A stretch of DNA of 58,609 nucleotides from a virus (Duplodnaviria > Caudoviricetes): positions 1-58,609 of the IMG/VR virus record IMGVR_UViG_3300032280_000090; one strand, written 5' to 3'. This document shows, one piece after another, positions 10,242 to 53,364 of the stretch. The stretch's first letter is position 1; every line of letters starts with the position of its first letter. Below the pieces are notes generated by a model. That model made no database searches and was not told the origin of the DNA. It was given only the letters and a program-made list of their open reading frames with translations. Both the position numbers and the translations under genes were made by a program.

Positions 10242-10254
10242 AATTGTTGTTTTG

Positions 10255-11815: not shown

Positions 11816-11817
11816 CG

Positions 11818-12471: not shown

Positions 12472-12531
12472 ATTGATTAGGGTTGGTTTTATAGTTCCCC
12501 TCATGGGGGTATTTCAAGTATTATTTCAAAC

Positions 12532-24438: not shown

Positions 24439-24442
24439 CGTA

Positions 24443-24628
24443 TTAGGCAGTAGCGGTTTCGATGGGTTGAACCATTTGGCTCTTAGCATCGTTCATTCGG
24501 GACTGCATTGCGCCGACGAGAAACTTACGGAGAGTTTCACGATTCTTTTTACCGCCGATTGCTGACTGAGCTGCGGCGACTTCCTCATCACCATAAGGGA
24601 TGCGGAGTGTTAGGTTCTTATGTTTCAT
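24443..24628 (-). CDS. Small hypothetical protein (possible ribbon-helix-helix regulator)
   Basis: KNLTLRIP strand followed by helices. Confidence 0.45.
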   Translation of the reverse strand: MKHKNLTLRIPYGDEEVAAAQSAIGGKKNRETLRKFLVGAMQSRMNDAKSQMVQPIETATA

Positions 24629-30186: not shown

Positions 30187-30894
30187 CTAAAAAGTACGTT
30201 TTTCCCACGCCTCACGAGCCTTTTCTACCGAAATTGCAGGCTTTCCGATGCGCTCATTCACATCGTTGTGAAGGTGAACGCTCCAGCCAAAAAGATCCTG
30301 CCATACCGGAGGATGCTCGGAAATGAACTGGCGGAAATGTTCTTGGCAAGGACATCCGTCAAATGGAAGGGATTCCGACCAATCAAGAAACCATAGCTTT
30401 CCTGCGTAGTCGTGATTTTCGCTATTGTGCTTATATCGTAGTGCGTACAAATGTAACTCTGCCCAATGGCGAGAACCTTGCTTTGTGATTTGCGTGGCAG
30501 GGGACGAGGCGTGCGAACGAACAATTTCATCACCGCAATTATTTACCCATTTCCGGTGCTGGTCTGGATCGACGCCAAGTGCCTCACGAACGATCTCCGT
30601 AACTTTTTTTGCAATGGCATTTTGTCGATCGTTTGGGGCAATCGTATGCCTTCTTAGCAAATCGGTATTCATGGTGCTAATTTGCCACTCGGTGACTTGT
30701 TCCTCGGTAATGCCATCCTTACGGCATAACCACGCTTCTACCATTTTACTCAACGCAATGAGAAAAGCGTCATTTTCACGACTTCCGTAGTCAGTGACTA
30801 GAATTTGAAGCGTCCCATCGGGTAAGAACCGCCAATCGCCAACCTCGCTATACCGCATAGCCGAAGGGTCTATAGCCTTTATTTCAATTCTCAT
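30187..30894 (-). CDS. ERV1/ALR-family FAD sulfhydryl oxidase fused to an N-terminal domain of unknown function
   Basis: C-terminal GSRHWAELH...LPFDGCPCQEHF...LFGWSVHLHNDVNERIGKP matches the ERV/ALR consensus G..W..LH / LPCxxC..H / W....HN.VN..LGK. Confidence 0.8.
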   Translation of the reverse strand: MRIEIKAIDPSAMRYSEVGDWRFLPDGTLQILVTDYGSRENDAFLIALSKMVEAWLCRKDGITEEQVTEWQISTMNTDLLRRHTIAPNDRQNAIAKKVTEIVREALGVDPDQHRKWVNNCGDEIVRSHASSPATQITKQGSRHWAELHLYALRYKHNSENHDYAGKLWFLDWSESLPFDGCPCQEHFRQFISEHPPVWQDLFGWSVHLHNDVNERIGKPAISVEKAREAWEKRTF

Positions 30895-30895
30895 G

Positions 30896-33800
30896 CTATT
30901 TCATCATCAATTCTTGCAGAGGTAGCTTTTTCTTATTGTCTGGAACGATTAGCTTAATGTTTTTTAAAATGCCTCCATCACCGGCATTAAAGCTATTGGT
31001 TAGCAATCTCACGTTTTCAAGCGTTTGCGTTGCGCTAGTTGCGCTAGGTTGAGGGGTTGCAGCTTCGGGAGTGAATTGGGGCTGACCTCCGGTTTGGATC
31101 GCCTCACGCATTTCTGGCGTAATTTTTACTTTCCAGATTTTGTACGTTTTTGTTCCTTTGCTATGCACTCTTGCCCATTCCTCTGACAAATCCCGCTGCC
31201 TTTCCATGAAAAGATCCCTGTATTCGTCTTGATCTACATTTTCATCGTCCTCAAAAATTCCCTCTCTTTCTAATTGTTTTTCAACCTGATTGAAAATTCT
31301 ATCTTGCGCTTCTTGTGGGATGTCATGAAGAGGGTCGGCATATCTTTCGCCTGTAACAATTTCAGATTGTTCTACTTTTCCTTTGAACTTTTTTTCAACA
31401 TATTTGCCGATCTCTTTAGGAAGCATCTGATCGTAAAATTTTTTCATGCCTTCGCCTCCTATTTCTAGTTTGGTTCCACGAAGGTCTTTTGCTCCAGAAA
31501 ATGTATCTTTTTCGCCTTCACCATTTACTATTTTTTCAGCAACTTCTTTTCCAACATTTGCAGCCAGATCAGCTTCTGGAATAGATGCACCAAGAGTTCT
31601 CCAAGCTGATCCATCACCTTTACCGATATATTTTATTTTGTATGTTCCATCTTCTTGTTTGGAATATCTCAGAGCGTCGATTTGAGTGGATAGCCTATAG
31701 CGAGCAGCTTGCGTTGCCCCATCAGTCCAAGAAACTCCATCCTTACCTTGTTCAATAGCCATTTGTAATTGGCGTTTAAACAACTGAAGCCCCCAATCTT
31801 TTCTGAATGGTGCGTCTGCGACTTCTTTTCCTGTTAAGTTTCCTTGAGCATATTTAATGGCTTCTTCAGCATTTTTACCATATGCCTCAATACCAGCAGG
31901 ATATTCTTTTGAAGATACAACCCATCCCCAATTGGTTTTTGTAGCTATTGGATCAGTTAGTTTAATGTTCTGATCTCCCTGATACCCCTGCTTTCTGCCT
32001 TTCTGATGCCGTCCAGACTGATATTCTTCTGAATGCAATAGATTATCACCAGCTACGTCCTTGCGCTCGTTAAGCCTCATGTGGGCTACATAGTTAGGAA
32101 TGTCAGGGAAGTGAGAGTCGGTGTATTCAGAAGTCCGTTTTGGAGGTTTCGTTTCTTTTGAAAGGCGATTAAACTCTGCAATGTTTTCTTCTGTGCGAGG
32201 AAGATTTTGAAGTTCTTTAAGTCTTTTAATTTTAGATTCAAAGGAAGGCATCGTCATCACTACTTCCCTGTAGTTCTGTCCGTCAGGGGTAACATAGGTT
32301 CCGTATTTTGGATCGCCAATAGCAGTTGGTCGTGCATTAGGCGTATTTTGCGCATCCGTTGTGTCAAAAAACTCCCCCAAAGTCATATCTAAAGAATCTG
32401 CGTAATCTTTTGCCAATTTAAGTAATTGTTTTTTATCCGCTTTTGGATTTTTTAATTCATCATCGAACGAATCATTAGGAGCCATTTCTACCTCCCTCCA
32501 ATTCTGTAATTGTTCCCGAATATATTCGGGAGTATATTCATTAATTATTTCTTCTTCTGTCTTATTTTTTTCTACTGCTAAATACTTTTCTTCAAACTGA
32601 ATCTGCCCTTCGTTCTTCAAATAATCACTTACTTCTTGCTTGGTGACGCTATCTTTGCCTTCTAGGAAGCCTTCTAGGTTGCTCCATTTGATTTCTTCAG
32701 GCTTTACTCCCGAACCTTTCGTTGGGTCAACTATAGCCATGATTTGCTGAACGGATGCTTTATTAGGCATCTTTTCGTCAATCGTCTTTTGCAACTGAGA
32801 GTAGAATCCTTTTTCTGAAGTAGGGTAGGTGCTAGTGTAGTCAGGGGTGAATTGCGCTTGCATCGGCTGTAATTCACCAATAGGCGTATATGGCTCACTT
32901 GTTTTCGCATCTGAAACTAATGGTTTCCACTTACCATCTTTACCTTTATATTCTAGTAAATTAGGAGGAACATTTCCCCTTCCTTGAAGTAAAACCTCTC
33001 CTGTGCCGTCATCGAATTGAATTCCGTTTTCATTTTCAGGGTACCTCCCAAACAAATCTACAAGTTTTTGTTTATTTATTCTAAAAAGGTTTCCGGAATC
33101 TAATGAAGAATAGTATTCTGTATTTTTAGGGGTATTTCCCATATAAACACCTTCTCCAGAATAACCTTCTTCAGATGGCCTAATTCCCTCTTTTATGAAA
33201 TCTCGTGGATTTGCATCTGTTAAATGGTAAACATACGGATCTGTGGTTCCGAATATTTGTTTTTCACCGCTAGAAGTGAAAGCTGATCCCATTGTCATTG
33301 CGTCCTTTCCTTGAATGGCGTTTGCGCCTCGCAGGAGGTCGCTAGAAATCTTCGGAACAGATTCCTCGCCCATTTGTGTAGGCATACCCTCTTGCGTCAA
33401 CTCAGGGTCAATTATGGCTTCTGGAACCGCATTGAAAATCGACTTGCCGTATTCAAACGGATATTTCTGTCCATTACTCTGCTCATAGTGAGAATAAGCA
33501 TCCAGCCTCCTACTACGAATAAGTGACATAGGATCACTACTCTTGGCGTCGGCTTTCTCTTCTTTGCTCATTTTGCTCCGAGGAACCTTCGGGAGAGAAA
33601 TAACTACAGGATTGAAATTCTTTGGCCTTGCCTCAGTTTGCGGAGGCTTGACGTTCAAGAAAGCGTCATAAATATAACGCATTTGCATAGCCTTATTGAA
33701 ATCTGTATCCAGATTGCGATGTCGAGCTTGTGCCGCTTGTTCGGAAAGAGCATCCATTTCGGCAGGATCGTTCTGCCAATTCTCCATGTATTTGCTCAAG

Positions 33801-36800
33801 CCTTTGATAAATTCATTCGGATCGTAGTTCCACATCTTCAGCAACTCAGGCTGATACTTCAGAATAAGATTTGCCTTATCCTTGGCTCCGGTGACGTTGA
33901 ACTCGTTCACTAGGAAGTGACCATCTTTACTGAATGACAAAGAAATCGGCTTGCTCTGGACGATTTTAGGCGAGAAAGGCTTGTATTTCCCCCCTGCCGT
34001 TAGCCGAGACATATACATTCCGATAGTTGGTGTTCCATCAGCACGATTAATAATATCCCTAGCCAGAGCTAGTTTGTTCTTAATTGAATATGGAACTATA
34101 TTCTCTGGTAGGGATAAAATCTCATTAAGTTGCTTTTCAGTCAACCTGCCACGGAAACTTAATCCGTCAGGCGTAAAGGGACGCATCGCCTCGGGGTTAT
34201 CTTGGTCAAACTTCAGAATAGAATCTCTAATCAGTTGCGACCTAGCTTGCATCAGTCCCTTATAGGCGTCTGGCTTGCGTTCTACTGGCTTTCCCTCACC
34301 ATCGTACACGATTTGCGAAACAATACGCATGGATCCACCAGTAGGGATAATCTGCGTAGTCAGTTCTTCGGGCATTTGCCCATATCCCTTAACACGAACA
34401 GGTGTATTCTCGCCGTCATCCGAGCCTCTCCATTCTCCTTCAGCAGCTTCTGGATTTGCGATCAAATGCGAATAAATTACATTTCCATCAGCATCCACAA
34501 CTTCAGCTACTTTCGTGGTCTTAAATTTTCCATCGTCTTTAGCAAACTCTTCAGCAATAGCACGATTGTTCTTAATATCTTTCGGCGTGATCTCAGGCGC
34601 AACATCCGATCCATCGTGAGGCGTAAGAACTCCGTTAAACTCGTTAAGGGCAATGTTGTTCCTGCGAACTTGCGCCATCATTTCAGGCGTGAAGGATGTC
34701 CCAGTAAGTGCTGAATAGTATGGGTCTTTAACTCCTGCGTATGCACCCTTGCGAATAACAGCGGCTAGTCGGTTATTCTCATGGTTCACCATTGCCCAAT
34801 CAATAATGTTCTGGACAGGCGAATTAAGCCTTTGCATCCCTTTTCCGCCAATTTGGTTTGCCCCCAATCCTGCGGAATTAGCTTCAGCAAGGATTTCACT
34901 TTGCATATACTTAGCAACCTTTACTGGATCGTAAGTTTTCGTTTGGTAGTCCCACATGTCGTTATTCTTTGCGAACTCGACTTTTTGTTCAGGAGTACGC
35001 TTAACTAGGTAATTGTTAAGAAACATATCCCCTAGCATTTCGTTAGAATATGCACCTTCCGTTCCGGGAACTACCTTGCCTTCGGGAGTATAAACCACTT
35101 TCCCGAATAGTTTTTCTCTTAGCGGTTGCGTCAGCTTTCGGTATTCGGTAAAGCCCTGTGCAATATGGTCAGCTTCGTGCGTAGCAACCCAAGCCAAAGG
35201 ACGGCCTGTTGCTTCTTGAATTTCTCGCAATTTATCCACATTCAGAACTGCGGTATCACGCATTGGATCGAAAATAAGAGCTTGTGCTTTTGGCCCTACC
35301 ATATCTCCGGTAGGCAGTTTTACCTGACCGCTGGCGGCATACCTAGCTCCAGCATTCTTTGCGTAAAACTCTGCCGTGGCTTTCTCCATTCCGGGATTCA
35401 CATCCATTAACTTTTGCGCTATTTCCTCCGTGGTCATTATCCGCAAATTGAAATTGCGTCCGGGAGCAAGTGGCCCATTAATGCGACGATCAGCACTAGA
35501 AAGCACCCCTAGCACTTGCCTTGTGTATTCTTGGCGAGTTGGCACGGATGCCCTTTGGTTCATCTCGTAGATGCCCTTTTGCGTAGTGACATCGTTCTGT
35601 GCCGCTTGCGCTTCTTCGGATTGTGGATCCTTTTGCGTTAGTTCATTAGCCCTAACTTGTGCTGCGTCCAGCTTGCGTTTTGAATCAGCAATTACTTCAT
35701 CCCATGAAGCAGCAGCATTAAGGTTAGCCCTGTCAGTTTCAGGCAACCTTTGCATAAGTTTGTAATTCTCGTAATCCTTCTGTTTGCGATACCTTTGTGC
35801 TTCGTAGGGGTTTTTACCCAATGCCCTATTGATTCCACCATGCGTATAGGAAAATATTGCGCCATTTGCCAAGGTTTCACCCATTTCCTGTGCGTCTTGA
35901 TCGTTGTAAATACCGAGCGCAATTCCAAGCGGAACCATTTCGGCTCCTGTGCGAATAAAATCTTTTAGGTTATTGCTAGTCCAGTTAATTACCGATTCAT
36001 TAACGAAAGGAATTTTGCGTGAGGGAATGTAACTTAAAGCCTTCGTTGCCACGGATGATTCTGGAGCTGCAATCGCTGTGGAGAACATATCTCCGGGTGC
36101 TCCAGCAAGCCTTCTATTAGCTTTCGCTAGGTCAGCTACAACTCTTGGGGCATAAAGCGTGGAAGCAAGGGTCATTCCTTTGAGAATTCCTCCTAGCCTG
36201 TCCTCGGGATTTGCTAAAGCTCCTACACCTGCCGCCCCAAGTTCCAAACTAGCAAGCGGTAGGTACTGGCGAACATAAGGACGATAAAACGATGGCACGT
36301 TCTCTAGGGCTTCTTCTAGTTTTTGACCACCTTTGCTTATGCTATCAGCAACAATAGTGGCGTATTTCTCAACAGCACCTTGTTCTGCTTTGGCTTCAGC
36401 TTTTCCAGCAAATGCCGCACCTTGTTTAGCCTCTTCCGCAGCATTAGCCGCAGCTTCAGCTTCAGGAGTAAGCGGATTAGCAATTTTAGCCCCTAGTTTG
36501 ATAACTTTACCAGCACCTTCAAAAGCCTTCATCGCCATAGAAAACTCATTACCAGCAGGAACAACCATTCCTGTAGCAAACAACTCGTTTTCAGTTGGTG
36601 CGGTTTTGTTTTGGTAAGCAATAGATTTATCAATGAAATCTTTCGCCAAGAATCCATCCTGTTCTTTTTTGTATTGAACCGCTTGTTCCCTGCTCCATTC
36701 TGGATGTTGCGCTAGGATTTGATCTGGTTGTGCCGATAGTTGCGAAATCATCGCCAGCAATGCCTTTTGCGTAACAGGACTAGATGCGTCGATAGCTCTT

Positions 36801-37621
36801 GCGGCTACGTCAGGGTTTTCCTCATCGTACTGAGCATTGTGCGTATTAAAATACTCTCTATTACGGAAACCTTCTTTTGCTTCTTCTTCAGTTTTTAGTC
36901 CCAAAGCAATTAAGGCTCTATCGGCGGTTGTTTGACCATTCTCGACTAGGTTTTTACCCTGCCTCCAAAACCCTTCAAATGTATTAGCTACTGACTCTGG
37001 AAATGCCTTGATTGCACGAATAGCTTTCTCCTCACCTCCGGGAGCTGCAGTCATATTTGCAGGATTTACAGAACCTAAATCGCTAATGATTTCCCCTGCT
37101 CCCGATATAAGGCCACCGACCATTCCGGGAGTGCTTCCTACTGCCGATTCGATTGCCTTAGAAGCGGCATCGTCTAGGGTTTGATTCTTGCGATGCTCGT
37201 ACAGATAGTTAATCTGTTCAGGTGTTTTCTCAAACCATTGTGGAAATTTCTTGATCTCTTCTGGATCAGTTTCTTCTTTGGCAACATTGGCAAGTTCCTC
37301 GCTGACATTTTTGAAACCTGCTTGCTGAAGCGTTTCGCCAATGGTAGGCAGCTTGGCGCCACCGACTTCCGGCAAGTTTTTCTTAGCAGATTGGATCAAC
37401 TGATCCATCGCTGCTAGGTCAGGATTATTCTGTTCCGTTACTGATATTGTAGGAGTTGCCTTGGATTCGGTTGCTCCTGTTCCTCCCATTGCTTTGCTTG
37501 CTGAAGAAAGCAACTGATCCATGTAAGCTAGATCATCGTCTTTTTTTGGGTTTTCAATTCCTAGAGCCATCGGAGGATTATTGCGGAACAACTTCGATTT
37601 GTCCAACATCTCCTCCACCAA
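30896..37621 (-). CDS. Giant internal virion/ejection protein (polyvalent type) with an ART-like domain
   Basis: 2241 aa (likely start ~37570); last gene of the internal-virion block; YVYHLT..GIRP..GEGVY..GEV ART-like motif; GFYSQL...GVKPEEIKW module. Confidence 0.7.
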   Translation of the reverse strand: MVEEMLDKSKLFRNNPPMALGIENPKKDDDLAYMDQLLSSASKAMGGTGATESKATPTISVTEQNNPDLAAMDQLIQSAKKNLPEVGGAKLPTIGETLQQAGFKNVSEELANVAKEETDPEEIKKFPQWFEKTPEQINYLYEHRKNQTLDDAASKAIESAVGSTPGMVGGLISGAGEIISDLGSVNPANMTAAPGGEEKAIRAIKAFPESVANTFEGFWRQGKNLVENGQTTADRALIALGLKTEEEAKEGFRNREYFNTHNAQYDEENPDVAARAIDASSPVTQKALLAMISQLSAQPDQILAQHPEWSREQAVQYKKEQDGFLAKDFIDKSIAYQNKTAPTENELFATGMVVPAGNEFSMAMKAFEGAGKVIKLGAKIANPLTPEAEAAANAAEEAKQGAAFAGKAEAKAEQGAVEKYATIVADSISKGGQKLEEALENVPSFYRPYVRQYLPLASLELGAAGVGALANPEDRLGGILKGMTLASTLYAPRVVADLAKANRRLAGAPGDMFSTAIAAPESSVATKALSYIPSRKIPFVNESVINWTSNNLKDFIRTGAEMVPLGIALGIYNDQDAQEMGETLANGAIFSYTHGGINRALGKNPYEAQRYRKQKDYENYKLMQRLPETDRANLNAAASWDEVIADSKRKLDAAQVRANELTQKDPQSEEAQAAQNDVTTQKGIYEMNQRASVPTRQEYTRQVLGVLSSADRRINGPLAPGRNFNLRIMTTEEIAQKLMDVNPGMEKATAEFYAKNAGARYAASGQVKLPTGDMVGPKAQALIFDPMRDTAVLNVDKLREIQEATGRPLAWVATHEADHIAQGFTEYRKLTQPLREKLFGKVVYTPEGKVVPGTEGAYSNEMLGDMFLNNYLVKRTPEQKVEFAKNNDMWDYQTKTYDPVKVAKYMQSEILAEANSAGLGANQIGGKGMQRLNSPVQNIIDWAMVNHENNRLAAVIRKGAYAGVKDPYYSALTGTSFTPEMMAQVRRNNIALNEFNGVLTPHDGSDVAPEITPKDIKNNRAIAEEFAKDDGKFKTTKVAEVVDADGNVIYSHLIANPEAAEGEWRGSDDGENTPVRVKGYGQMPEELTTQIIPTGGSMRIVSQIVYDGEGKPVERKPDAYKGLMQARSQLIRDSILKFDQDNPEAMRPFTPDGLSFRGRLTEKQLNEILSLPENIVPYSIKNKLALARDIINRADGTPTIGMYMSRLTAGGKYKPFSPKIVQSKPISLSFSKDGHFLVNEFNVTGAKDKANLILKYQPELLKMWNYDPNEFIKGLSKYMENWQNDPAEMDALSEQAAQARHRNLDTDFNKAMQMRYIYDAFLNVKPPQTEARPKNFNPVVISLPKVPRSKMSKEEKADAKSSDPMSLIRSRRLDAYSHYEQSNGQKYPFEYGKSIFNAVPEAIIDPELTQEGMPTQMGEESVPKISSDLLRGANAIQGKDAMTMGSAFTSSGEKQIFGTTDPYVYHLTDANPRDFIKEGIRPSEEGYSGEGVYMGNTPKNTEYYSSLDSGNLFRINKQKLVDLFGRYPENENGIQFDDGTGEVLLQGRGNVPPNLLEYKGKDGKWKPLVSDAKTSEPYTPIGELQPMQAQFTPDYTSTYPTSEKGFYSQLQKTIDEKMPNKASVQQIMAIVDPTKGSGVKPEEIKWSNLEGFLEGKDSVTKQEVSDYLKNEGQIQFEEKYLAVEKNKTEEEIINEYTPEYIREQLQNWREVEMAPNDSFDDELKNPKADKKQLLKLAKDYADSLDMTLGEFFDTTDAQNTPNARPTAIGDPKYGTYVTPDGQNYREVVMTMPSFESKIKRLKELQNLPRTEENIAEFNRLSKETKPPKRTSEYTDSHFPDIPNYVAHMRLNERKDVAGDNLLHSEEYQSGRHQKGRKQGYQGDQNIKLTDPIATKTNWGWVVSSKEYPAGIEAYGKNAEEAIKYAQGNLTGKEVADAPFRKDWGLQLFKRQLQMAIEQGKDGVSWTDGATQAARYRLSTQIDALRYSKQEDGTYKIKYIGKGDGSAWRTLGASIPEADLAANVGKEVAEKIVNGEGEKDTFSGAKDLRGTKLEIGGEGMKKFYDQMLPKEIGKYVEKKFKGKVEQSEIVTGERYADPLHDIPQEAQDRIFNQVEKQLEREGIFEDDENVDQDEYRDLFMERQRDLSEEWARVHSKGTKTYKIWKVKITPEMREAIQTGGQPQFTPEAATPQPSATSATQTLENVRLLTNSFNAGDGGILKNIKLIVPDNKKKLPLQELMMK

Positions 37622-39458
37622 AACCTTCTTTTACATTTCTGTCTTGTAATGCTTTTGCTCCAAGCAGAAGGCTATCCGTATCAGCTTCTTCTGCAATTCT
37701 ATCATGAAAGATTTGAGCCCTTCTTTTAATTCCTTCAATCTTCTTGTTAATAATTTCTGCATCTTCGAGGCTTGCGGTAGCTTTTTCTGTAATTAGTTTG
37801 GCAATTTCTTTTTTGCCATCCTCCATTCTTTTATACGCATCGGATTTAAGCATCACTTCATCTTGAGGAGTGTGACCACCAACAAAATAATAAACGCCAG
37901 CCTTTTCAGCAGGAATTCCAGAAGTTGAAAGCCTGTCCCTTGTTGCTGTAACTACTTTATTTGCGTTATCAGCTCCGTAGTTGAAGGTTTCCGTAAATGT
38001 CCTAACCATTTGCTGTTTGATTGGCTCTGGAAGGAATCCGCCGCCAAATGCCTTACCCTTGAACTTTGTTACGTATTTATCTTTCAGCGACATTGCGTTC
38101 TCAATCAACTGAGTCTGACCGACTGTGATTTTACCTCCCGACATTGCCCTTCCGAGCAAGTCAACCATATCTACTTCAGCTTGTCCTGCGGCTTCAGGAT
38201 GTTTGTTAGAGTTTTCGTAAGCGGCTATGAAAGGCATCATCAGTTCTTTCGTTCCACCTTGCCTCAAGAAATTAGAAACAGGCTTTTGCAAGCCAAAGGC
38301 TTTTGATTCACGGAGGATTGTATTCTCCATTCTGTTTTGCTCGGTGGATTTAGCAGTCGCTTCACGTAGTTTTTGAGCTTCTTCCCTTGTTTTTTGCGCC
38401 TCTTCCCTAGTCGCACGCAAATTCGGATCGTTTTGTTTCCAAGGAATAACAAATACCCCTTGCTTATTAGGCTCTGGAGTTCCAGCGGCATACCAATTTG
38501 GGTTATCTGCTTGTGTCTCCATGTATTTGCGTGCTTCCTCGTAAGTTTTAAATCCAGAACGAGGAACCGAGTATTTAGTAACAGGCGGTTGCGCAGGGAT
38601 AGGAGCAACCTCCTCTAGTGGCATGGTAGCCAATTCTTGTTCTATGTTTGCAAGTCCAGTAGGCGAAATGCCTCCTAGCGTTTTAATACTAGCAGGAGGT
38701 TTTGCGTTTGCGAAAACGGACATGGTTTGAGGAATGCTCGTTTCCATAGGGTTTCCTGCGCCAAGGCTTGCCCTTATGCTTGACCAATCGACATTGGCTA
38801 GGGAATTCAGCGCATTGCTTCCAATCGGCGTTGGTGCGGCTTCTAGCGGCATCGGGGCAGTTAGGTCGCCCAAGATCCTATCCGTTTTCATCAAACTCGG
38901 ATCTTCTTCTGGCGCTTCGGGAAGATTAATGCTATCAAAAGAAAACCCACCAACAGGAGGAGTGTCACGTTGGTATCTCTCTTGCGTTGGTAGGGCTGAA
39001 GGGGTAGGTGCAATTTGTTTAGGAGCCTCATCCGAACTGCTTGTAGTTGTAGCTGAAGAAGATCCACCGCCCCACTCTTCAGGAACCACCTCTTTAATTC
39101 TTTCTTGAGAAATTCGCTCCATTTCTTTGTTATGCCGCTGCGTCTCCATCATACTAATTTGCTTCTCTTCCTTTGAAGCCTTTAGCTTAATCATATCCCT
39201 TGCCAACTCTCTTTGGTCTTTTAGGTCTTGAAGTTTCTGATCCCTATCGGACTTAATTGCAGACAACAATCCAGTAGATATATCCTTAACGCCAGAAGCT
39301 ATTCCCTGTGCCACAAGTTCTGGCTTTGAGCTTGCTACCTGCAATGGTGTGAGAGGCCTGATTTGCGTCATATCCAGACCACCTAGCGAAACAGGCTGAA
39401 CATTAGCTAACGCAGAAAATGGTTGGAATGTAAAAGCCATAAAATTAGTTGCCGCCAA
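37578..39458 (-). CDS. Putative internal virion (ejection) protein
   Basis: 626 aa, helical and Pro-rich; position in the block; likely start 39440. Confidence 0.55.
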   Translation of the reverse strand: MAATNFMAFTFQPFSALANVQPVSLGGLDMTQIRPLTPLQVASSKPELVAQGIASGVKDISTGLLSAIKSDRDQKLQDLKDQRELARDMIKLKASKEEKQISMMETQRHNKEMERISQERIKEVVPEEWGGGSSSATTTSSSDEAPKQIAPTPSALPTQERYQRDTPPVGGFSFDSINLPEAPEEDPSLMKTDRILGDLTAPMPLEAAPTPIGSNALNSLANVDWSSIRASLGAGNPMETSIPQTMSVFANAKPPASIKTLGGISPTGLANIEQELATMPLEEVAPIPAQPPVTKYSVPRSGFKTYEEARKYMETQADNPNWYAAGTPEPNKQGVFVIPWKQNDPNLRATREEAQKTREEAQKLREATAKSTEQNRMENTILRESKAFGLQKPVSNFLRQGGTKELMMPFIAAYENSNKHPEAAGQAEVDMVDLLGRAMSGGKITVGQTQLIENAMSLKDKYVTKFKGKAFGGGFLPEPIKQQMVRTFTETFNYGADNANKVVTATRDRLSTSGIPAEKAGVYYFVGGHTPQDEVMLKSDAYKRMEDGKKEIAKLITEKATASLEDAEIINKKIEGIKRRAQIFHDRIAEEADTDSLLLGAKALQDRNVKEGFGGGDVGQIEVVPQ

Positions 39459-41352
39459 ATTGTAATCCTTCTATCTTTGGAAGCAAGGAAGAAGCATTAA
39501 GTGAATTTGCTACTGGAGCTATTGGCGTTGGGGCTGGCCTTGCAAAAGATGGTATTTTTAATGCTTGAGGGGTTGGGGCAGATTGCTCAAGAGCCTTTTC
39601 CGCAAACCCTCCCGCATAACCTAAAGGATTTCCGCCTGTAAATTTTGTCTTATCAAGCATTTCGGCATCGGCCAGCTTTTGATTGGCCTCCATATTTTTA
39701 AGTTGCTTTCTCCCCAAATTACTATTGCCTTCCGCAGCCCTCAATGCCGCTTCTATTTGAGAATCGTAATCAAATTGTTGTGAAGCACGCAGCCTAGACG
39801 CTTCTGCTTCTCTAGCATCAGCTAATTTTTTAGCTTCAATTTCAGCATTTGTTTTATTTTGTTGATCTAGTATGTTTTGAGATTGTTTCTTTATGGCATC
39901 AATCTCCTCCGCCCCTCTTTTTTTTAGCTCTTCAAACGCTAGGGCGTCTTTCTCTCTTTGTGCGGCGGATATCTTTTCCTCTCTATTTTCATCCAGCGTA
40001 AGCTGTTCAGACATTTTCTTATCCAAGTTCTCCTGAGTGATGGGAGTTAATGGAGTAATCGGGGCTATATCGTTTTGAAATACCGATAGGTCACTTCCAA
40101 CTTGGTTGTCGATTGTGTATTCCGGCCTATCAGTTTGTGATGCAACTCCTGCGTATACGCTTTTTATCAAATAATTCGCTATTATATCTTGAACTTCTTT
40201 TGCTTGCTTTGCCAAGTCTGCATTAATAACAGAAGCATTCGTAATTGCTGATTGTGCCGTATTGTAATTTACAATTGGCGTGATATTCTTGGCGGTGTCC
40301 AGAGACCTTACGTTTGAATCTCCACTTGCAACACTGATCTGAGGGCCATTCTGTGAACTGGTTACATAATATACGTCTCCGCTAGTTGATGGTATCATTG
40401 ATAATGAACCACCAAATTTTGTTTCGCCAACATCATTAGGTTTCAACGCATAGTTTACTTTTCCTCCAGCACCTCCGCTTCCCCATATATATGGGTCATA
40501 ATATGGTGTTCTCGTTGGCTCAAACGATTTATCTTGCTGCCCTGATGATAGGTAGTCCTCTACGTCATGTCTCGACTGAGTGAGGTTAGATTCAATAACC
40601 TGCCAAGGTTCTCTTTTGTCGAGTGCGCCAGAAGTGCGTTCTAAAAAATCTAATGGTCTTTCTTTTGTTCCTGCGCCTAGAAGTTGTGCAAGTGGATCTA
40701 AATTAAATTTAAGCTCTGCATCTGGATTTTTAACCCATTCCGGTCTGGCATAATTCTGTCCGTTATATGTTGTTACTTTATCTGTCCGTGTGTAATTCTT
40801 GTCTTGAAAATCACGCAGCAAATTGTTTACTGTCCCAAGATATTTGGTTGCAAAAGTTTGTTTATTTGGGTCTGCATGAACTAAACCGGCTTCTTCGTCA
40901 CTATCTATATTTTGCACCAAGGCTTCCCACTCTTCATCATTTCTTTTTTGTAATTCTTGAGTTACTTGATTTGCAAAAGAATTGGAGTAACTATTGTTTA
41001 ACCCAACTCCAGTGCTAGTATAAGCTAGTTGTTTAAGTATGTCAGATGGGGTTTGGTTTCTGCCATAATTGTCGTATTTCCATAAATCATTATAGCTTTT
41101 GATCTCAGACTTTCCTATTTTGGTTGGAGAAGCCGAATACATATCCTGCCAAACCCCAAGCGGTACAGAATTAACTAATCCTGATATACTTTTGCCTTTT
41201 TGATTTAATTCTTCCTTAGATATTTTTCCACTTAATGCGTCTTGTAATGTTTTTAGGTTTTGAGAGATTACAGGATCTTTTAACGCAAGATAACTATAAT
41301 ATAGATTTTTAGAATCTATATTTGTAACATTTTCTGGATTTGGATAGATCAT
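39445..41352 (-). CDS. Putative internal virion protein
   Basis: 635 aa; C-terminus GLQFGGN resembles DLKFGGL of the neighbouring gene. Confidence 0.55.
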   Translation of the reverse strand: MIYPNPENVTNIDSKNLYYSYLALKDPVISQNLKTLQDALSGKISKEELNQKGKSISGLVNSVPLGVWQDMYSASPTKIGKSEIKSYNDLWKYDNYGRNQTPSDILKQLAYTSTGVGLNNSYSNSFANQVTQELQKRNDEEWEALVQNIDSDEEAGLVHADPNKQTFATKYLGTVNNLLRDFQDKNYTRTDKVTTYNGQNYARPEWVKNPDAELKFNLDPLAQLLGAGTKERPLDFLERTSGALDKREPWQVIESNLTQSRHDVEDYLSSGQQDKSFEPTRTPYYDPYIWGSGGAGGKVNYALKPNDVGETKFGGSLSMIPSTSGDVYYVTSSQNGPQISVASGDSNVRSLDTAKNITPIVNYNTAQSAITNASVINADLAKQAKEVQDIIANYLIKSVYAGVASQTDRPEYTIDNQVGSDLSVFQNDIAPITPLTPITQENLDKKMSEQLTLDENREEKISAAQREKDALAFEELKKRGAEEIDAIKKQSQNILDQQNKTNAEIEAKKLADAREAEASRLRASQQFDYDSQIEAALRAAEGNSNLGRKQLKNMEANQKLADAEMLDKTKFTGGNPLGYAGGFAEKALEQSAPTPQALKIPSFARPAPTPIAPVANSLNASSLLPKIEGLQFGGN

Positions 41353-41374
41353 GCGTATTTATCCCACGCAAAAA

Positions 41375-42115
41375 CTACAATCCACCGAACTTCAAGTCAT
41401 CCACTTTAGGTGATGTGAATTGTTGCTGAGTGTTCCCAAATTGGTTTAGATAATTCTGTTGTGATGCGGCTGATTTCATTGCAGGATTCTTCTGTTGCAT
41501 AGCTAGGTTGTATGCAGTTGGAGCCATTTGAGATGATACTCCACGCAGATTCTGTAGCTTTTGCTGTTCGGCTTGGTTTACATCAAACGCAGGAGCCGTA
41601 TAGCTTTTACCTTTATTTGCTGATTCTTTAGCATATTGGTTTGCTGAAGAAGCATCCATTGCCCTCTGCATTGCATCTGCCGAATACATTTGCTGGTATG
41701 CTGCTTGTTCAGCTTGCGTTGCCATCTGACTAGCTTGAGTAGTTGCCGATTGGTATGCAGCTTGGTCTTGAGCGAGCTTTGTAGCCGCAGCACGATCCGC
41801 AGCAGCTTGGATCTCACGCTCCTGTTGCTTAGTTGCGTAGTCCTGAGTTAATTGCGCTTGTTTAGTCGTAAATTGATCTTGGAAGTTTCTTTGCAGTTCC
41901 GCTTGCGCTGATTCAAAAGCACGCTGTTGCTCTGCTGCCCACTTGTTGTATTCAAGTTGGGCTGCTGCTTGTGCTTTGCTGTATTCTAAAGCCTTTGTTT
42001 GATAAGCAAGATTCGCCATGCCCATTGCAGAATTCTGAGCGTTGATAGCCGCAATAAGGCTTGCTGTATTATCTTGCCGTTGTGGCGCAGGTGTGCTAGA
42101 AGAACTTCCTCCCAT
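41375..42115 (-). CDS. Putative ejection/pilot protein
   Basis: MGGSSS start, Q/A-rich coiled coil. Confidence 0.6.
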   Translation of the reverse strand: MGGSSSSTPAPQRQDNTASLIAAINAQNSAMGMANLAYQTKALEYSKAQAAAQLEYNKWAAEQQRAFESAQAELQRNFQDQFTTKQAQLTQDYATKQQEREIQAAADRAAATKLAQDQAAYQSATTQASQMATQAEQAAYQQMYSADAMQRAMDASSANQYAKESANKGKSYTAPAFDVNQAEQQKLQNLRGVSSQMAPTAYNLAMQQKNPAMKSAASQQNYLNQFGNTQQQFTSPKVDDLKFGGL

Positions 42116-42146
42116 AGTAGTAGTGTGTTAGGTGTTAGTTTTTTGG

Positions 42147-43478
42147 TTAATAATATCTTTTGGGGTACATTTGGTTGAACGCTGCTGGCGCAAATGCACC
42201 GACTGCCATGCCACCTATAGGGCCAGCTAATGCTGTTCCAGCCATAGTTCCAGCCGCTCCAATAAGCGCACCAGTAGTTGCGTTTTGGTTAGCGGCATTT
42301 TGCGCTGATATTTGCGATAGTGTATTTTGATAATCACGCCATTCTTGGCGATTAGCCTGATTCAAAGATAGTGCTCCTCCCATAGACTTGTTAATAAAGT
42401 CGGACATGGTTTGGAAATTTCCTGCCTGTTGTCCTGACAACGCATTGATGTTCCCCATTTGGGTTTGACCAAGGGAATTTAATGATCCTGTTAGGTCATC
42501 ACGCAACCTATTAGCTCCAGCAAATTGCATATTTCCAAAATTGGACATATTCTGAGCCTGTTGCGCCGAAAGACCCATGAGGTTTTGATTCTGCATCTGG
42601 CCTAACTCAGCAACATTAGCCATTCCAACCCTTCCGACATTTTCGCCAAGACCCCTAGCGGCCTGTAAGATGCCCTGTTGCCATTGGTTCATCCTATTAA
42701 GATTCTGACTCTCAACCTGCTGTTGCTGTCCAATAAGAGCCTGTGGGTCAATCGTTGCAATCTGAGGGGTTTGTTTTACGAACTGATCCCGAAGGGCCAT
42801 ATTTTCCATGTCCCTCTTACGCTTCTGCTCCAAGGATTGATCGGCAAATGCAGCTTCTCCAATTGAGCCAGCACCAAGACCAGATTGCATATTCCTAACG
42901 ATTCCAGAACGGATGAGTTGGTTCATCCATTCTTTGTCATATTCCTTTCCCGTAAGTTTTTCTACATCTGCACCCAAGGTTTGACGCATTTTAGCGGCTT
43001 CAGGATTAAGGATCTCCTCAGCTTCACGTTGCCTTTGAACATTACCAATGGAAAACTTTTTAGACTCCTCTGCGGCTTTGTTAGCGTCAAAACGCTCCAT
43101 TGTAGGAGCAAACTGAGCCTCCCTAAGAAGTTGCTGGTTTTGAAGGTCTAAAAGACTTGATTGAACTGCGTCTCTAGTCTTGAGTTGGCCTGTTTGAATG
43201 GCTCCCTGCGTGTCTAAAAAGCCTAGTTGACCTTTTGCTAGGCTTTGCAAGTAACCTGTCTCAATCTCTTTCTGCGTCCTTTGATTAGCAATCTGAGAGT
43301 CGCTGTATGCTTTAAGCAAATCAGTTTCAATGCCGCCTCTGCCTTTCAGAAATGCTAAATCACTACTTAGCTTTTGTTGGAAAAGATTACTTCCAGCATT
43401 CAGTTGCGCCGTCAGAATATCATAAGCTGATTGATTTCCATCAGGCGCAGAAGGAGTTGTTGTAGGTGAGCTTCCCAT
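42147..43478 (-). CDS. Putative ejection/pilot protein
   Basis: MGSSP start, Q/N-rich, C-terminal Gly/Ala hydrophobic segment. Confidence 0.6.
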   Translation of the reverse strand: MGSSPTTTPSAPDGNQSAYDILTAQLNAGSNLFQQKLSSDLAFLKGRGGIETDLLKAYSDSQIANQRTQKEIETGYLQSLAKGQLGFLDTQGAIQTGQLKTRDAVQSSLLDLQNQQLLREAQFAPTMERFDANKAAEESKKFSIGNVQRQREAEEILNPEAAKMRQTLGADVEKLTGKEYDKEWMNQLIRSGIVRNMQSGLGAGSIGEAAFADQSLEQKRKRDMENMALRDQFVKQTPQIATIDPQALIGQQQQVESQNLNRMNQWQQGILQAARGLGENVGRVGMANVAELGQMQNQNLMGLSAQQAQNMSNFGNMQFAGANRLRDDLTGSLNSLGQTQMGNINALSGQQAGNFQTMSDFINKSMGGALSLNQANRQEWRDYQNTLSQISAQNAANQNATTGALIGAAGTMAGTALAGPIGGMAVGAFAPAAFNQMYPKRYY

Positions 43479-43863: not shown

Positions 43864-44109
43864 TTAAATTATTGTTGTTACGACACCTGTTTTATTATTG
43901 GTTTCATAACCAATTGATTGCGTTGTATTGATTTCGCTTCTTGTTCTAGAATTGCCACAAATAACACAAGGAAGGCAATTGGAATTTGTGGGAGTGTTGT
44001 AAATTGGAATACTGGAATAAAGAGGAATAACCCCATCATTTCCGTATGGGCTGATATACTTGTTCGGAAACTCTGTAATTGGCGTTGCCGCTGTTAGAAT
44101 AGAAGGCAT
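43864..44109 (-). CDS. Small Cys-containing putative virion protein
   Basis: 81 aa, CLPCVICG. Confidence 0.6.
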   Translation of the reverse strand: MPSILTAATPITEFPNKYISPYGNDGVIPLYSSIPIYNTPTNSNCLPCVICGNSRTRSEINTTQSIGYETNNKTGVVTTII

Positions 44110-44111
44110 AT

Positions 44112-51658: not shown

Positions 51659-51665
51659 AATTTAA

Positions 51666-52853: not shown

Positions 52854-52854
52854 A

Positions 52855-53364
52855 TTATGTCAATTCTGTAACATGAAGATCCCCTGCTCCTGTGCAATTT
52901 CCCTGAAGTGCAAGAATAACGCCAGTTATTGTTGCGGTATCTCCAGCTTCCAATAAAATAGAATAATTGCTTGAAGAGGCAACTCCAGATCCGAAAAGAA
53001 CATATACCACAGATCCATTCACATCATTAGAAAGAATTATGCTTTTTCTGTTGGTGTTACTTGCTAGGATTTGCGTCGATGCCCCTATCGAAGAAAAATT
53101 GCTAGTGGTTGCAGATGAAGCAGAGTTTGGAAGTCCATCATCAAAATAGATTGTTAGTTTATCCCCTGCCGTTGGTGCTGTTGCTACAGTGATTGTAGAG
53201 TTTGCGGCTTGCGTGTATGCGGTTGGGGCAGGGCCAGATACAGAATAATGAATAAATCCAGTAGTTGCGTTTGCCACAAGTAAGATTTGATTCAATGGAA
53301 CATTTACCCCTGTTAATGTGATCTGTGCGCCATTCAGCGTGTATGTCTTTACGAGTTGTTTCAT
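52855..53364 (-). CDS. Putative virion structural protein
   Basis: Beta-rich; ILASNTNRKSIILSN motif. Confidence 0.6.
   Translation of the reverse strand: MKQLVKTYTLNGAQITLTGVNVPLNQILLVANATTGFIHYSVSGPAPTAYTQAANSTITVATAPTAGDKLTIYFDDGLPNSASSATTSNFSSIGASTQILASNTNRKSIILSNDVNGSVVYVLFGSGVASSSNYSILLEAGDTATITGVILALQGNCTGAGDLHVTELT

What the first reader, a model, noticed from the sequence alone, without database searches (positions are those of the whole stretch)
30187..30894. ERV1/ALR sulfhydryl oxidase in a bacteriophage: possible cytoplasmic disulfide pathway for virion assembly
Seen: the C-terminal ~95 aa carry the ERV/ALR signature (W..LH, LP..C.C..H, W....HN.VN..IGKP). The gene is the last of the virion block, 1 nt after the giant ejection gene. 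Structural proteins are notably Cys-bearing: MCP has 6 Cys including near both termini, the closure protein has 11 and ends in NPC, the fibre N-domains have conserved Cys (MSCGC, PCDP, LLCY), and an 81-aa protein has CLPCVIC. Established: ERV/ALR oxidases are typical of eukaryotes and large eukaryotic DNA viruses (vaccinia E10, ASFV B119L), where they form virion disulfides in the reducing cytoplasm. Inference: this phage cross-links its virion by an analogous pathway, which I do not know to be characterised in tailed phages.
Basis: partly seen in the sequence, partly recalled or inferred. Interest (0 to 1): 0.85.

Follow-up and report, generated by a model that had tools for sequence, protein, structure and literature searches.

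The report
Phage ERV oxidase with CPC motif
An uncultivated tailed phage carries a relative of the disulfide-forming enzyme known from giant eukaryotic viruses, in a phage-specific form with an altered active site, so some phages may oxidise their own proteins inside the bacterial cell.

Summary
ORF 30187-30894 (-) encodes a 235-aa protein. Residues 143-231 match Pfam Evr1_Alr above its cut-off, and the predicted fold overlays ASFV pB119L (Z 14.2).

1. The flavin-proximal CxxC is replaced by an invariant Cys-Pro-Cys. It is present in 33 of 33 homologues and 52 of 52 related IMG/VR loci.
2. Residues 1-130 are a separate domain. It belongs to a large unannotated phage family with a weak zincin-like fold, and its H-E..E/APY motifs have decayed in this phage.
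3. In relatives the gene is coupled to an ATP-grasp-like gene that this window lacks.

The link to cysteine-rich virion proteins is weak. 4,191 aa of the virion block contain no Cys, which is also true of T7, P22 and N4 ejection proteins. The other virion proteins fall in or just above the control range.

Independent support comes from siphovirus-like contigs, where a short CxC ERV follows a tail-module protein with 39-41 Cys.

I found no GenBank phage record and no paper (14, 15, 27, 75-77). It is a probable active oxidase, and its substrates are not shown.

The parts
30187..30894 (-). Two-domain gene of 235 aa: N-terminal zincin-like domain plus C-terminal ERV/ALR domain
   Evidence: ORF. 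33 full-length homologues, all with PF04777 precomputed. dN/dS against L001 is 0.20.
30505..30894 (-). N-terminal domain (residues 1-130). It belongs to a large unannotated phage family, and its catalytic-looking motifs have decayed here (S49-K50 in place of H-E; APN..N in place of APY..H).
   Evidence: A profile search found 1,707 cluster representatives at E<=1e-3, mostly stand-alone proteins of 115-160 aa. Invariant H48, E52, D70, Y87, H91 and E98 in the stand-alone forms. No Pfam or PHROG family covers the domain. The model has pLDDT 96.7; the best fold match is selecase 4qhf at Z 6.2, which is weak.
30190..30504 (-). ERV/ALR FAD-binding domain (residues 131-235)
   Evidence: Pfam; PDB sequence search; model pLDDT 89; Foldseek 3gwl_A E 3.7e-5, TMt 0.81; VIA 3gwl_B Z 14.2, rmsd 2.0 over 98 residues.
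30346..30354 (-). Codons TGT CCT TGC = Cys181-Pro182-Cys183, in the place of the family's flavin-proximal CxxC
   Evidence: Sequence. Invariant in 33 of 33 homologues and 52 of 52 related loci. MAFFT aligns it to CPxC of CxxC-type viral ERVs with a one-residue gap.
30896..37621 (-). 2241-aa protein without cysteine, a probable internal virion/ejection protein. Its stop codon is 1 nt before the ERV start.
   Evidence: Its homologues in five relatives have 0-2 Cys in 2376-3594 aa. T7 gp15/gp16, P22 gp7/gp20/gp16 and N4 vRNAP (3500 aa) also have 0 Cys. No Pfam or PHROG family.
37578..43478 (-). Four further Cys-free genes (626, 635, 246 and 443 aa), probably ejection or internal proteins
   Evidence: The 443-aa protein has a language-model resemblance to P22_gp7 DNA-transfer proteins, which is a lead only.
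43864..46250 (-). Candidate substrates: an 81-aa protein with conserved CxxCxxC, and a 712-aa protein with 11 Cys. Nine of the 11 sit in columns that are Cys in at least five of the six sequences (window plus five relatives), including the C-terminal residue.
   Evidence: Identity unknown.
50414..54140 (-). Fibre-like proteins of 414 aa (50414-51658) and 258 aa (53364-54140). They share an N-terminal domain with a conserved Cys pair (IPCDP ... LLCY, 21 residues apart). These are candidate substrates.
   Evidence: Tail-fibre PHROG hit for the 414-aa protein. Conserved Cys columns; sequences.

Best explanation
The gene encodes a phage-made, homodimeric, FAD-dependent sulfhydryl oxidase of the ERV/ALR fold. 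Its flavin-proximal redox pair is Cys-Pro-Cys instead of CxxC. It is fused behind a small zincin-like domain that has lost its conserved metal/catalytic residues in this phage.

The gene is the last cistron of the late virion/ejection operon and is probably translated by coupling to the giant gene, whose stop lies 1 nt before the ATG. In the infected cytoplasm the enzyme would take electrons from cysteine pairs of phage proteins, pass them through the CPC disulfide to FAD and on to O2, and so form disulfides before lysis.

The likeliest clients are the Cys-bearing tail and virion proteins: the fibre N-terminal domains, the 712-aa protein and the 81-aa CxxCxxC protein. The ejection proteins are not clients, because they have no Cys.

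Shown: homology, fold, conservation and synteny. Inferred: FAD binding, oxidase activity, timing of expression and the clients.
For: - Family and fold: Pfam E 3.2e-11, above the cut-off. PDB sequence hits to pB119L, ALR, Erv1 and Erv2. Model pLDDT 89. Z 14.2, rmsd 2.0 over 98 residues against 3gwl_B.
- Conservation: W144, H148, C181, P182, C183, H186, W204, H209, N210, V212 and N213 are invariant in 33 of 33 homologues. They align to the conserved W..H, second Cys, W and HN.VN of pB119L and ALR.
- Selection: dN/dS is 0.18 for the ERV domain against the 91%-identical L001.
- Dimer: the model supports a dimer through helices 141-155 and 163-175. Score 0.75 against a best control of 0.18. The mark was reached by 20 of 30 solved pairs and 1 of 23 single chains. 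Runs agree in at least 96% of contacts, and partner pLDDT is at least 90. Because Erv dimers have been solved, this may only show likeness.
- Synteny: the gene lies downstream of the giant Cys-free gene. 39 of 52 loci have an upstream ORF of at least 1000 aa on the same strand; together these hold 21 Cys in 86,488 aa.
- The ERV part stays intact while the N-domain motifs decay.
- A second tailed-phage lineage (L063, L070, L073, L077; tape measure and minor tail PHROGs) places a short CxC ERV directly after a 464-487-aa protein with 39-41 Cys.
- Precedent: yeast Erv1p expressed in the E. coli cytoplasm forms disulfides de novo with O2 (CyDisCo; PMC8601162, passages read).
Against: - The defining CxxC is not present, and a CxC next to a flavin has not been shown to work. 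I know it only from shuttle disulfides (PMC3509050, passages).
- No client is identified. The virion proteins' Cys content (0.2-2.0%) overlaps that of T7, P22 and N4.
- Conserved Cys columns are expected anyway at 44-73% identity.
- No protein of extreme Cys content exists in this family's six genomes.
- No thioredoxin- or glutaredoxin-like partner turned up among the 10 CxxC/Cys-rich proteins scanned, out of about 90 ORFs.
- The models give no coordinates, so neither Cys-Cys distances nor Cys-flavin distances could be measured.
- Host, oxygen regime and expression are unknown.
Confidence: 0.5

Rival explanations
1. The ERV domain is one step of a three-part modification module (ATP-grasp ligase, zincin-like hydrolase, thiol oxidase). 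The module makes or processes a thiol-containing peptide or small molecule, not virion disulfides. In this window the module is a remnant, with only the oxidase still active.
For: - In 26 of 42 scorable two-domain loci an ATP-grasp-like gene of about 430 aa lies within the roughly 10-kb flanks, and where the gene order was listed it sits just upstream of the ERV gene, mostly directly and often overlapping its start. L005 and L011 have one as well.
- Atlas features name that gene biotin carboxylase/GARS_A-like (score 0.98).
- The stand-alone N-domain sits next to a BLAST-detectable ATP-grasp homologue in 20 of the 57 ERV-less loci where the N-domain ORF was found; in one more it lies two genes away, and 26 of all 80 loci hold such a homologue.
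- All 26 loci with the ATP-grasp keep the H-E and APY motifs. Of the 16 without it, 13 have lost them. No locus combines the ATP-grasp with decayed motifs. On the ERV tree the decayed forms sit in at least four separate places.
Against: - The ERV domain is equally conserved with and without the ATP-grasp and with a decayed N-domain, so its function does not depend on them.
- The siphovirus-type ERVs have neither partner.
- No candidate product is known.
Confidence: 0.17
2. The oxidase targets the host rather than the virion. It would oxidise host thiol pools or thioredoxin-type proteins, or make H2O2, to shift cytoplasmic redox for takeover, defence evasion or lysis timing.
For: ERV enzymes reduce O2 to H2O2 (recalled knowledge). 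No phage client is identified here. The protein has no signal peptide by eye and is therefore cytoplasmic.
Against: The gene sits at the end of the late structural operon, not among the small genes that follow it. In the siphovirus-type loci it is adjacent to a 39-41-Cys tail-module protein.
Confidence: 0.13
3. The domain keeps the ERV fold, and perhaps the flavin, but is not a disulfide catalyst because CxC cannot replace CxxC. It would then serve as a structural or assembly factor.
For: The canonical CxxC is absent in every member. Some viral ERV fusions carry folded domains without a redox role (PMC3509050, passage on Ac92).
Against: Invariance of both cysteines and the intervening proline across sequences only 40-55% identical, together with all flavin-contact positions, is hard to explain without chemistry. 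C-X-C disulfides are redox-active in the shuttle arms of Erv enzymes (PMC3509050).
Confidence: 0.12
4. The gene belongs to a eukaryotic virus, or the contig is chimeric, so it is not a phage gene.
For: The closest CxxC-type ERV domains come from NCLDV-like contigs. L055 has an NCLDV capsid protein, L066 is named GVMAG and L071 lies in a 501-kb contig.
Against: - The window is a 58.6-kb virus record rated 93% complete, with nearly all coding sequence on one strand (18,444 of 18,948 aa in the greedy ORF calls) and with phage genes throughout.
- Gene order across the ERV gene is conserved in relatives of 43-55% GC, one of which has direct terminal repeats.
Confidence: 0.02

Closest known systems
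ASFV pB119L (PDB 3gwl), a compact viral ERV sulfhydryl oxidase
   Same: It is the best sequence and fold match: phmmer E 2.3e-8, 31% identity, Z 14.2, rmsd 2.0 over 98 residues. Both have a single Cys pair at the flavin and no shuttle disulfide. Both are encoded by a virus that assembles in the cytoplasm.
   Different: pB119L has CxxC (LPCTRC in the alignment), while this protein has CPC preceded by Phe-Asp-Gly. pB119L has no N-terminal domain. Its host is eukaryotic. Its partner protein (pA151R, recalled) has no counterpart found here.
Cellular Erv1/ALR and Erv2
   Same: Same Pfam family and helical FAD-binding fold. The predicted homodimer uses the first two helices.
   Different: The cellular enzymes carry a flexible shuttle disulfide (C-X-C, CXXC or CX4C) in addition to the flavin-proximal CxxC (PMC3509050). 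Here the C-X-C spacing sits at the flavin-proximal site itself and no shuttle pair is conserved. The only other invariant Cys is C57, and it belongs to the N-domain family.
Viral ERV fusions: mimivirus R596 and baculovirus Ac92/P33
   Same: An ERV module fused to an extra folded domain of unclear role (PMC3509050 passages). R596 gives Z 12.4-12.5 and AcP33 gives Z 5.8.
   Different: The fused domain here is N-terminal and zincin-like. It also exists on its own in at least 1,707 protein clusters. The host is bacterial.
Vaccinia E10R-A2.5L-G4L cytoplasmic disulfide pathway (recalled; Pfam PF04805 for the poxvirus oxidase per PMC10598087)
   Same: It is the functional model: a virus-encoded oxidase that makes virion disulfides in a reducing cytoplasm.
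   Different: No relay proteins were found here (10 of about 90 ORFs scanned). No virion disulfide has been shown.
CyDisCo (yeast Erv1p plus PDI expressed in the E. coli cytoplasm)
   Same: It shows that an ERV oxidase can create disulfides de novo with O2 in a bacterial cytoplasm (PMC8601162). This phage would be doing the same thing naturally.
   Different: CyDisCo is engineered, uses a CxxC enzyme and needs an added isomerase for complex substrates.
Minimal zincin-like metallohydrolases (selecase 4qhf, abylysin 4jiu, YbeY, CapP, PprI/IrrE, SprT-type)
   Same: The N-domain model has three strands followed by a long helix that carries H-E-x-x-E at the position of HExxH. The top nine VIA rows are metal-dependent hydrolases or peptidases by their titles, except AQ_1354, which is titled hypothetical and which I recall to be a YbeY relative.
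   Different: Z is only 4.5-6.2 and Foldseek finds nothing at E<=0.001. The motif is HExxE, not HExxH. In this window it reads S-K-x-x-E.

Membership tests
ERV/ALR sulfhydryl oxidases (Pfam PF04777) | Sequence match to the family profile above the curated cut-off | tested here: met
   43.9 bits against a cut-off of 27.6, E 3.2e-11, profile positions 3-93 of 93. Also 44.7 bits in the six-frame search.
ERV/ALR sulfhydryl oxidases (Pfam PF04777) | Helical-bundle ERV fold | tested here: met
   Model pLDDT 89. 3gwl_B Z 14.2, rmsd 2.0 over 98 residues. Erv1, Erv2 and R596 give Z 12.4-12.9. Foldseek TMt 0.81.
ERV/ALR sulfhydryl oxidases (Pfam PF04777) | Flavin-proximal Cys-X-X-Cys at the start of the third helix | tested here: not met
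   The motif is Cys181-Pro182-Cys183 (C-X-C), invariant in 33 of 33 homologues and 52 of 52 loci. It aligns to CPxC with a one-residue gap. HMMER aligns C183 to the second Cys. I therefore file the protein as a homologue with a variant active site, not as a canonical member.
ERV/ALR sulfhydryl oxidases (Pfam PF04777) | Conserved flavin-contact positions (W..H of helix 1; W....HN.VN and Lys of the last helices) | tested here: met
   W144, H148, W204, H209, N210, V212 and N213 are invariant, and K218 lies within IGKP. All align to the same residues of pB119L and ALR. That these positions contact the flavin is recalled knowledge.
ERV/ALR sulfhydryl oxidases (Pfam PF04777) | Bound FAD and O2-dependent thiol oxidase activity | not testable with these tools
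   This needs purified protein.
ERV/ALR sulfhydryl oxidases (Pfam PF04777) | Homodimer | tested here: inconclusive
   The model supports a dimer: 0.75 against a best control of 0.18. The mark was reached by 20 of 30 solved pairs and 1 of 23 single chains. Runs agree in at least 96% of contacts and pLDDT is at least 90. Erv dimers have been solved, so the pass may only show likeness.
Zincin-like metallopeptidases (N-terminal domain) | HExxH metal-binding/catalytic motif | tested here: not met
   The family consensus is H-E-x-x-E...C. The window has S49-K50-M-V-E53.
Zincin-like metallopeptidases (N-terminal domain) | Zincin fold (mixed sheet plus active-site helix) | tested here: inconclusive
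   The best match is selecase at Z 6.2, rmsd 2.6 over 81 residues. Three chains reach Z>=5 and none reaches Z>=8. Foldseek's best is E 0.39.

The most novel reading that the evidence does not exclude
Tailed phages have their own clade of ERV oxidases, defined by a Cys-X-Cys flavin-proximal disulfide. With it they run a self-encoded oxidative-folding step in the bacterial cytoplasm for tail and virion proteins, a natural counterpart of the poxvirus/ASFV pathway and of CyDisCo. The shortened, more strained C-X-C ring would be an adaptation that lets the enzyme oxidise clients directly, without shuttle or relay proteins, against the bacterial reducing systems.
Probability: 0.35. Interest if true: 0.8.

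Novelty: new variant of a known kind. Interest (0 to 1): 0.66.

Why it matters
ERV/ALR oxidases are regarded as a trait of eukaryotes and their large DNA viruses (PMC3509050 and PMC10598087, passages read). Here the fold appears in tailed phages, and not as a stray. One IMG/VR scan found 418 stretches that encode relatives; the 80 kept include NCLDV-like ones, and 52 of them carry the two-domain phage form. At least two phage architectures share one active-site change.

If the enzyme is active, three things follow:
- Some phages form disulfides in the bacterial cytoplasm, where they are normally excluded. That bears on virion stability and tail-fibre folding.
- The C-X-C/flavin pair would be a new redox centre for enzymologists.
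- It would be a compact natural tool for making disulfide proteins in bacteria.

The work also produced two reusable observations. Podovirus ejection proteins are strictly Cys-free. A very common ATP-grasp/zincin-like gene pair of unknown function lies behind them.

Tried and rejected
- Cys-free block as a consequence of the oxidase: rejected. T7 gp15/gp16, P22 gp7/gp20/gp16, and N4 vRNAP, gp51 and gp52 also have 0 Cys without any ERV.
- ERV presence tracking Cys-rich structural proteins: not supported (the regions compared are not equivalent).
- The ~430-aa Cys-bearing neighbour as a client: rejected. It looks like a cytoplasmic ATP-grasp ligase and the window lacks it.
- PHROG match for the ERV protein: none.
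- GenBank phage records: no tblastn match for the window protein, the short L063 ERV or the stand-alone N-domain P0046.
- Species-representative prokaryote genomes: only 4 weak hits, all to the ERV domain alone, on small MAG contigs (Pirellula sp., Bacteroidetes). No two-domain gene, so no host clue.
- Search for shorter ERV-only relatives in the 5.8-billion-protein set: no candidate.
- Redox partner: Pfam scan of 10 Cys/CxxC-bearing proteins found no thioredoxin fold. About 80 ORFs were not scanned.
- Identity of the 712-, 800-, 443- and 402-aa proteins: no PDB, Pfam or PHROG match. I could not say which protein is the capsid or the portal.
- Terminator or promoter after the gene: nothing above the shuffled expectation.
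- Expression: no RNA holder listed.
- The first pattern search with alignment A3 failed for lack of a conserved stretch. It was repeated with the closer set A4.
Supplements of the papers were not opened.
- The structure tools return no coordinates, so Cys-Cys and Cys-flavin distances could not be measured.
Full report
**1. What is there**

The window is a whole IMG/VR virus record of 58,609 bp. It is linear, CheckV rates it 93% complete, and nearly all genes are on the minus strand.

ORF 30187-30894 (-) encodes 235 aa. Its ATG lies 1 nt after the stop of the 2241-aa ORF 30896-37621.

Evidence that it is an ERV/ALR homologue:
- Residues 143-231 match Pfam PF04777 Evr1_Alr at E 3.2e-11, with 43.9 bits against a cut-off of 27.6.
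- phmmer against PDB sequences finds ASFV pB119L (3gwl, E 2.3e-8), then human and rat ALR, Arabidopsis and yeast Erv1, and Erv2.
- An AlphaFold2 model built on 33 homologues has mean pLDDT 89.
- Residues 135-234 of the model superpose on 3gwl_B with Z 14.2 and rmsd 2.0 over 98 residues. Erv1, Erv2 and mimivirus R596 give Z 12.4-12.9. Foldseek gives E 3.7e-5 and TMt 0.81.

**2. The gene is real and conserved**

The 5.8-billion-protein search returned 33 proteins at E<=1e-3 among 131 candidates. All carry PF04777, 40-55% identical over 95-100% of the query, apart from the window's own cluster at 100%. A pattern scan of IMG/VR found 462 stretches, of which 418 encode a relative. Of the 80 kept, L001-L052 carry the two-domain form, mostly on contigs of 40-66 kb.

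Against the 91%-identical L001 there are 48 nucleotide differences in 705, and dN/dS is 0.20 (0.21 for the N-domain, 0.18 for the ERV domain).

Gene order around the gene is conserved in relatives whose GC content ranges from 43% to 55%. One relative, G001, has direct terminal repeats and is rated 100% complete.

**3. The active site is not canonical**

The family's flavin-proximal motif is CxxC (PMC3509050, passages read). This protein has Cys181-Pro182-Cys183. The motif is invariant in 33 of 33 homologues and present in all 52 two-domain loci: 50 by ORF scan, and L005 and L011 by direct translation.

HMMER aligns C183 with the second Cys of pB119L and ALR. MAFFT aligns CP-C to the CPxC of CxxC-type viral ERVs with a single-residue gap.

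The other conserved ERV positions are invariant: W144, H148, H186, W204, H209, N210, V212 and N213.

I built a tree of 51 distinct ERV-domain sequences from the window and L001-L079. I dropped duplicates, fragments under 85 aa, and loci where my ORF caller found no HN.VN-bearing ORF: L005, L011, L058, L059, L064, L066, L068, L075 and L079. The tree puts all 41 CxC rows on one side of a branch with 98/88 support, which appears in 97% of 200 bootstrap trees. The 10 CxxC rows are on the other side. The tree has few columns and no cellular outgroup, so the direction of the change is not shown.

The CxxC rows look like eukaryotic giant-virus fragments:
- L055 has NCLDV capsid domains.
- L066 is named GVMAG.
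- L071 lies in a 501-kb contig.
- The neighbours of L061 and L078 are a tryptophan halogenase, a DNA ligase and a mannitol dehydrogenase, which are not diagnostic.

**4. A second tailed-phage lineage with the same change**

L063, L073, L077 (ERV of 129 aa; GCQC or GCPC) and L070 (154 aa; RCDC) are short ERV proteins with C-X-C. They sit in siphovirus-like tail modules: the L063 674-aa protein matches tape-measure PHROGs at E 1.2e-39, and an L070 protein matches a minor tail PHROG at E 3.3e-22.

In each case the gene directly upstream encodes a 464-487-aa protein with 39-41 cysteines, about 8.4%. In L063 the two ORFs overlap by 4 nt. That protein has no Pfam family. This is the strongest circumstantial link between phage ERVs and cysteine-rich tail proteins. 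It comes from another lineage, not from the window.

**5. The N-terminal half is a separate domain**

A profile of residues 1-130 (alignment A2, 19 sequences) searched against 1.84 billion cluster representatives found 1,707 proteins at E<=1e-3 and 1,365 at E<=1e-10. Most are stand-alone proteins of 115-160 aa. Their invariant residues are H48, E52, D70, Y87, H91 and E98, with E49 and C56 nearly invariant. This gives the pattern LHExxExxxC ... EPGD..APY...H......E.

No Pfam or PHROG family covers the domain. The only family hits are HNH endonuclease parts of a few longer members.

A model of the stand-alone member P0046 has pLDDT 96.7. Its best fold matches are weak:
- Selecase 4qhf gives Z 6.2, rmsd 2.6 over 81 residues.
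- Next come AQ_1354, abylysin, BepA, PprI, YbeY, CapP, an SprT-type protease and lugdulysin.
- Three chains reach Z>=5 and none reaches Z>=8.
- Foldseek finds nothing at E<=0.001.

I read it as a probable zincin-like metallohydrolase domain with HExxE in place of HExxH. Membership is not established.

In the window the motifs are gone. S49-K50 replaces H-E, and APN..N replaces APY..H. The domain is nevertheless under purifying selection.

**6. A linked ATP-grasp gene, and co-decay**

In most relatives a gene of about 430 aa lies between the giant gene and the ERV gene, often overlapping the ERV start. It has no Pfam or PDB sequence match. Atlas features place it with viral 'biotin carboxylase family'/GARS_A clusters at score 0.98, which points to an ATP-grasp ligase. 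The window has no homologue of it.

The same gene flanks the stand-alone N-domain. A BLAST-detectable homologue is present in 26 of 80 loci. Among the 57 loci where my regex found the N-domain ORF, the homologue is the directly adjacent gene in 20, and many further neighbours of 408-456 aa were not tested.

I could score 42 two-domain loci (ORF of at least 200 aa and at least 1.5 kb of upstream sequence):

| ATP-grasp gene | N-domain H-E and APY motifs | Loci |
|---|---|---|
| present | intact | 26 |
| present | decayed | 0 |
| absent | decayed (SK, RE, HK, HQ and/or no APY) | 13 |
| absent | intact | 3 |

L005 and L011, read separately, are intact and have a 432-438-aa ORF upstream. On the ERV tree the decayed forms lie in at least four separate places. 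The loci are not independent samples, so I give counts rather than a test.

The ERV motifs are unchanged throughout. I conclude that the oxidase works independently of the N-domain's chemistry and of the ATP-grasp gene. In this window the N-domain probably survives as a structural part.

**7. The cysteine argument**

Five consecutive genes upstream of the ERV gene (2241, 626, 635, 246 and 443 aa, 4,191 aa in total) contain no cysteine. Homologues of the giant protein have 0-2 Cys in 2,376-3,594 aa. Across 39 loci the upstream ORFs of at least 1000 aa hold 21 Cys in 86,488 residues.

This is not specific to ERV phages:
- T7 gp15 and gp16 have 0 Cys in 747 and 1318 aa.
- P22 gp7, gp20 and gp16 have 0 Cys.
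- N4 vRNAP has 0 Cys in 3500 aa, and N4 gp51 and gp52 have none either.

It also argues that the ERV protein, which has 4 Cys, is not itself ejected.

The Cys-bearing virion proteins of the window have 0.2-2.0% Cys, against 0.2-2.65% in the three control phages.

Cys columns conserved in the window and five related genomes are found in the 712-aa protein (9, including the last residue), the 81-aa protein (CxxCxxC) and the fibre N-domains (a pair 21 residues apart). The terminase has 7 as well, and at 44-73% identity such conservation is expected.

No structural protein of extreme Cys content exists in the six genomes. Proteins of at least 500 aa with at least 2% Cys occur in 1 of 52 ERV-bearing loci and in 7 of 80 ERV-less N-domain loci. 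The regions compared are not equivalent.

**8. How it most likely works**

Shown: an ERV fold with all conserved flavin-side positions, an invariant Cys-Pro-Cys, purifying selection, a position as last cistron of the virion/ejection operon, and a predicted dimer through the first two helices. The dimer scores 0.75 against a best control of 0.18. The mark was reached by 20 of 30 solved pairs and 1 of 23 single chains. Runs agree in at least 96% of contacts and pLDDT is at least 90. This may be recall of solved Erv dimers.

Inferred: FAD binding; transfer of electrons from client dithiols through C181/C183 to FAD and O2; late expression by translational coupling; and clients among tail and virion proteins.

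The precedent that this can work in a bacterial cytoplasm is CyDisCo, in which yeast Erv1p makes disulfides de novo with O2 in E. coli (PMC8601162, passages). C-X-C disulfides are known as redox-active shuttle motifs in cellular Erv enzymes (PMC3509050). That Mia40 uses CPC and that C-X-C rings are unusually oxidising is recalled, not tested. I found no thioredoxin-like relay among 10 scanned proteins.

**9. Novelty**

No GenBank phage record matches the window protein, the short phage ERV or the stand-alone N-domain.

Six full-text searches of CC-licensed PMC and bioRxiv returned no paper on a phage-encoded ERV. The term sets were: sulfhydryl oxidase + bacteriophage + Erv1; Evr1_Alr + phage; sulfhydryl oxidase + phage genome; FAD-linked sulfhydryl oxidase + Caudovirales; sulfhydryl oxidase/phage/virome/Erv; and thiol oxidase + phage-encoded + disulfide. 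Of the hits, I read passages of PMC3509050, PMC10598087, PMC6842933 and PMC8601162; those passages deal with NCLDV, baculovirus or engineered systems. The other hits I saw only as titles and abstract openings in the listings. Subscription journals and supplements were not searched.

I rate the finding a new variant of a known kind: a known enzyme family in a new host range, with a changed active-site motif and a new fusion partner.

**10. Verdict**

It is very probably a real ERV-fold flavoprotein (about 0.9). It is probably an active thiol oxidase (about 0.65). That it oxidises virion or tail proteins is the best reading, but it is unproven (about 0.4-0.5).

Noticed in passing
window 30896-43478; controls L081 (T7), L109 (P22), L110 (N4): Podovirus ejection/internal proteins are strictly cysteine-free: 4,191 aa here, T7 gp15/gp16, P22 gp7/gp20/gp16, and N4 vRNAP (3500 aa), gp51 and gp52. 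The scaffolds T7 gp9 and P22 gp8 also have none. This could serve as a simple marker for ejected proteins in unannotated phages.
   Followed up: partly
L002:8695-10011, L058:8423-10098, L111-L190: A conserved gene pair occurs behind large Cys-free genes in many 45-55-kb phage contigs: an ATP-grasp-like gene of about 430 aa and a zincin-like gene of about 125 aa. The small protein family has at least 1,707 clusters and no Pfam or PHROG entry. Its catalytic-looking motifs decay where the ATP-grasp gene is absent.
   Followed up: partly
L063:4176-5570, L070:8403-9866 (also L073, L077): Tail-module proteins of 464-487 aa with 39-41 Cys start with MSCFGKCGCGCC or MARIGKCCCLCEC and lie directly upstream of a short CxC ERV gene. 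They have no Pfam family. The window's 258-aa fibre-like protein starts with MSCGC. Whether the N-termini are related was not tested.
   Followed up: no
window 9663-12504: This may be a DNA-modification module. It holds a DpdA-like queuine tRNA-ribosyltransferase PHROG hit (10979-11815, E 2.3e-38), a glucosyltransferase-like protein (10255-10989), and a 192-aa protein with 9 Cys, 8 of them in conserved columns (9663-10241).
   Followed up: no
A metallophosphoesterase also follows the short ERV gene in L063.
   Followed up: no
window 30896-37621 (giant protein): The 2241-aa protein contains an H-E-A-D-H (HExxH) string in ...WVATHEADHIAQG.... No Pfam or PHROG family matched, so a peptidase domain remains unverified.
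   Followed up: no
L019 and L026 (one 66,054-bp contig); L018 and L027 (one 94,385-bp contig): Two different ERV genes (CPCKAH and CPCEAH types) lie on the same IMG/VR contig, about 50-60 kb apart. This could mean two related phages joined in assembly, or a concatemer of diverged copies.
   Followed up: no
window 18206-18886 and 22580-24489: An IstB/DnaC-like ATPase carries two N-terminal CxxC pairs. A RecT-plus-exonuclease recombination pair is also present.
   Followed up: no
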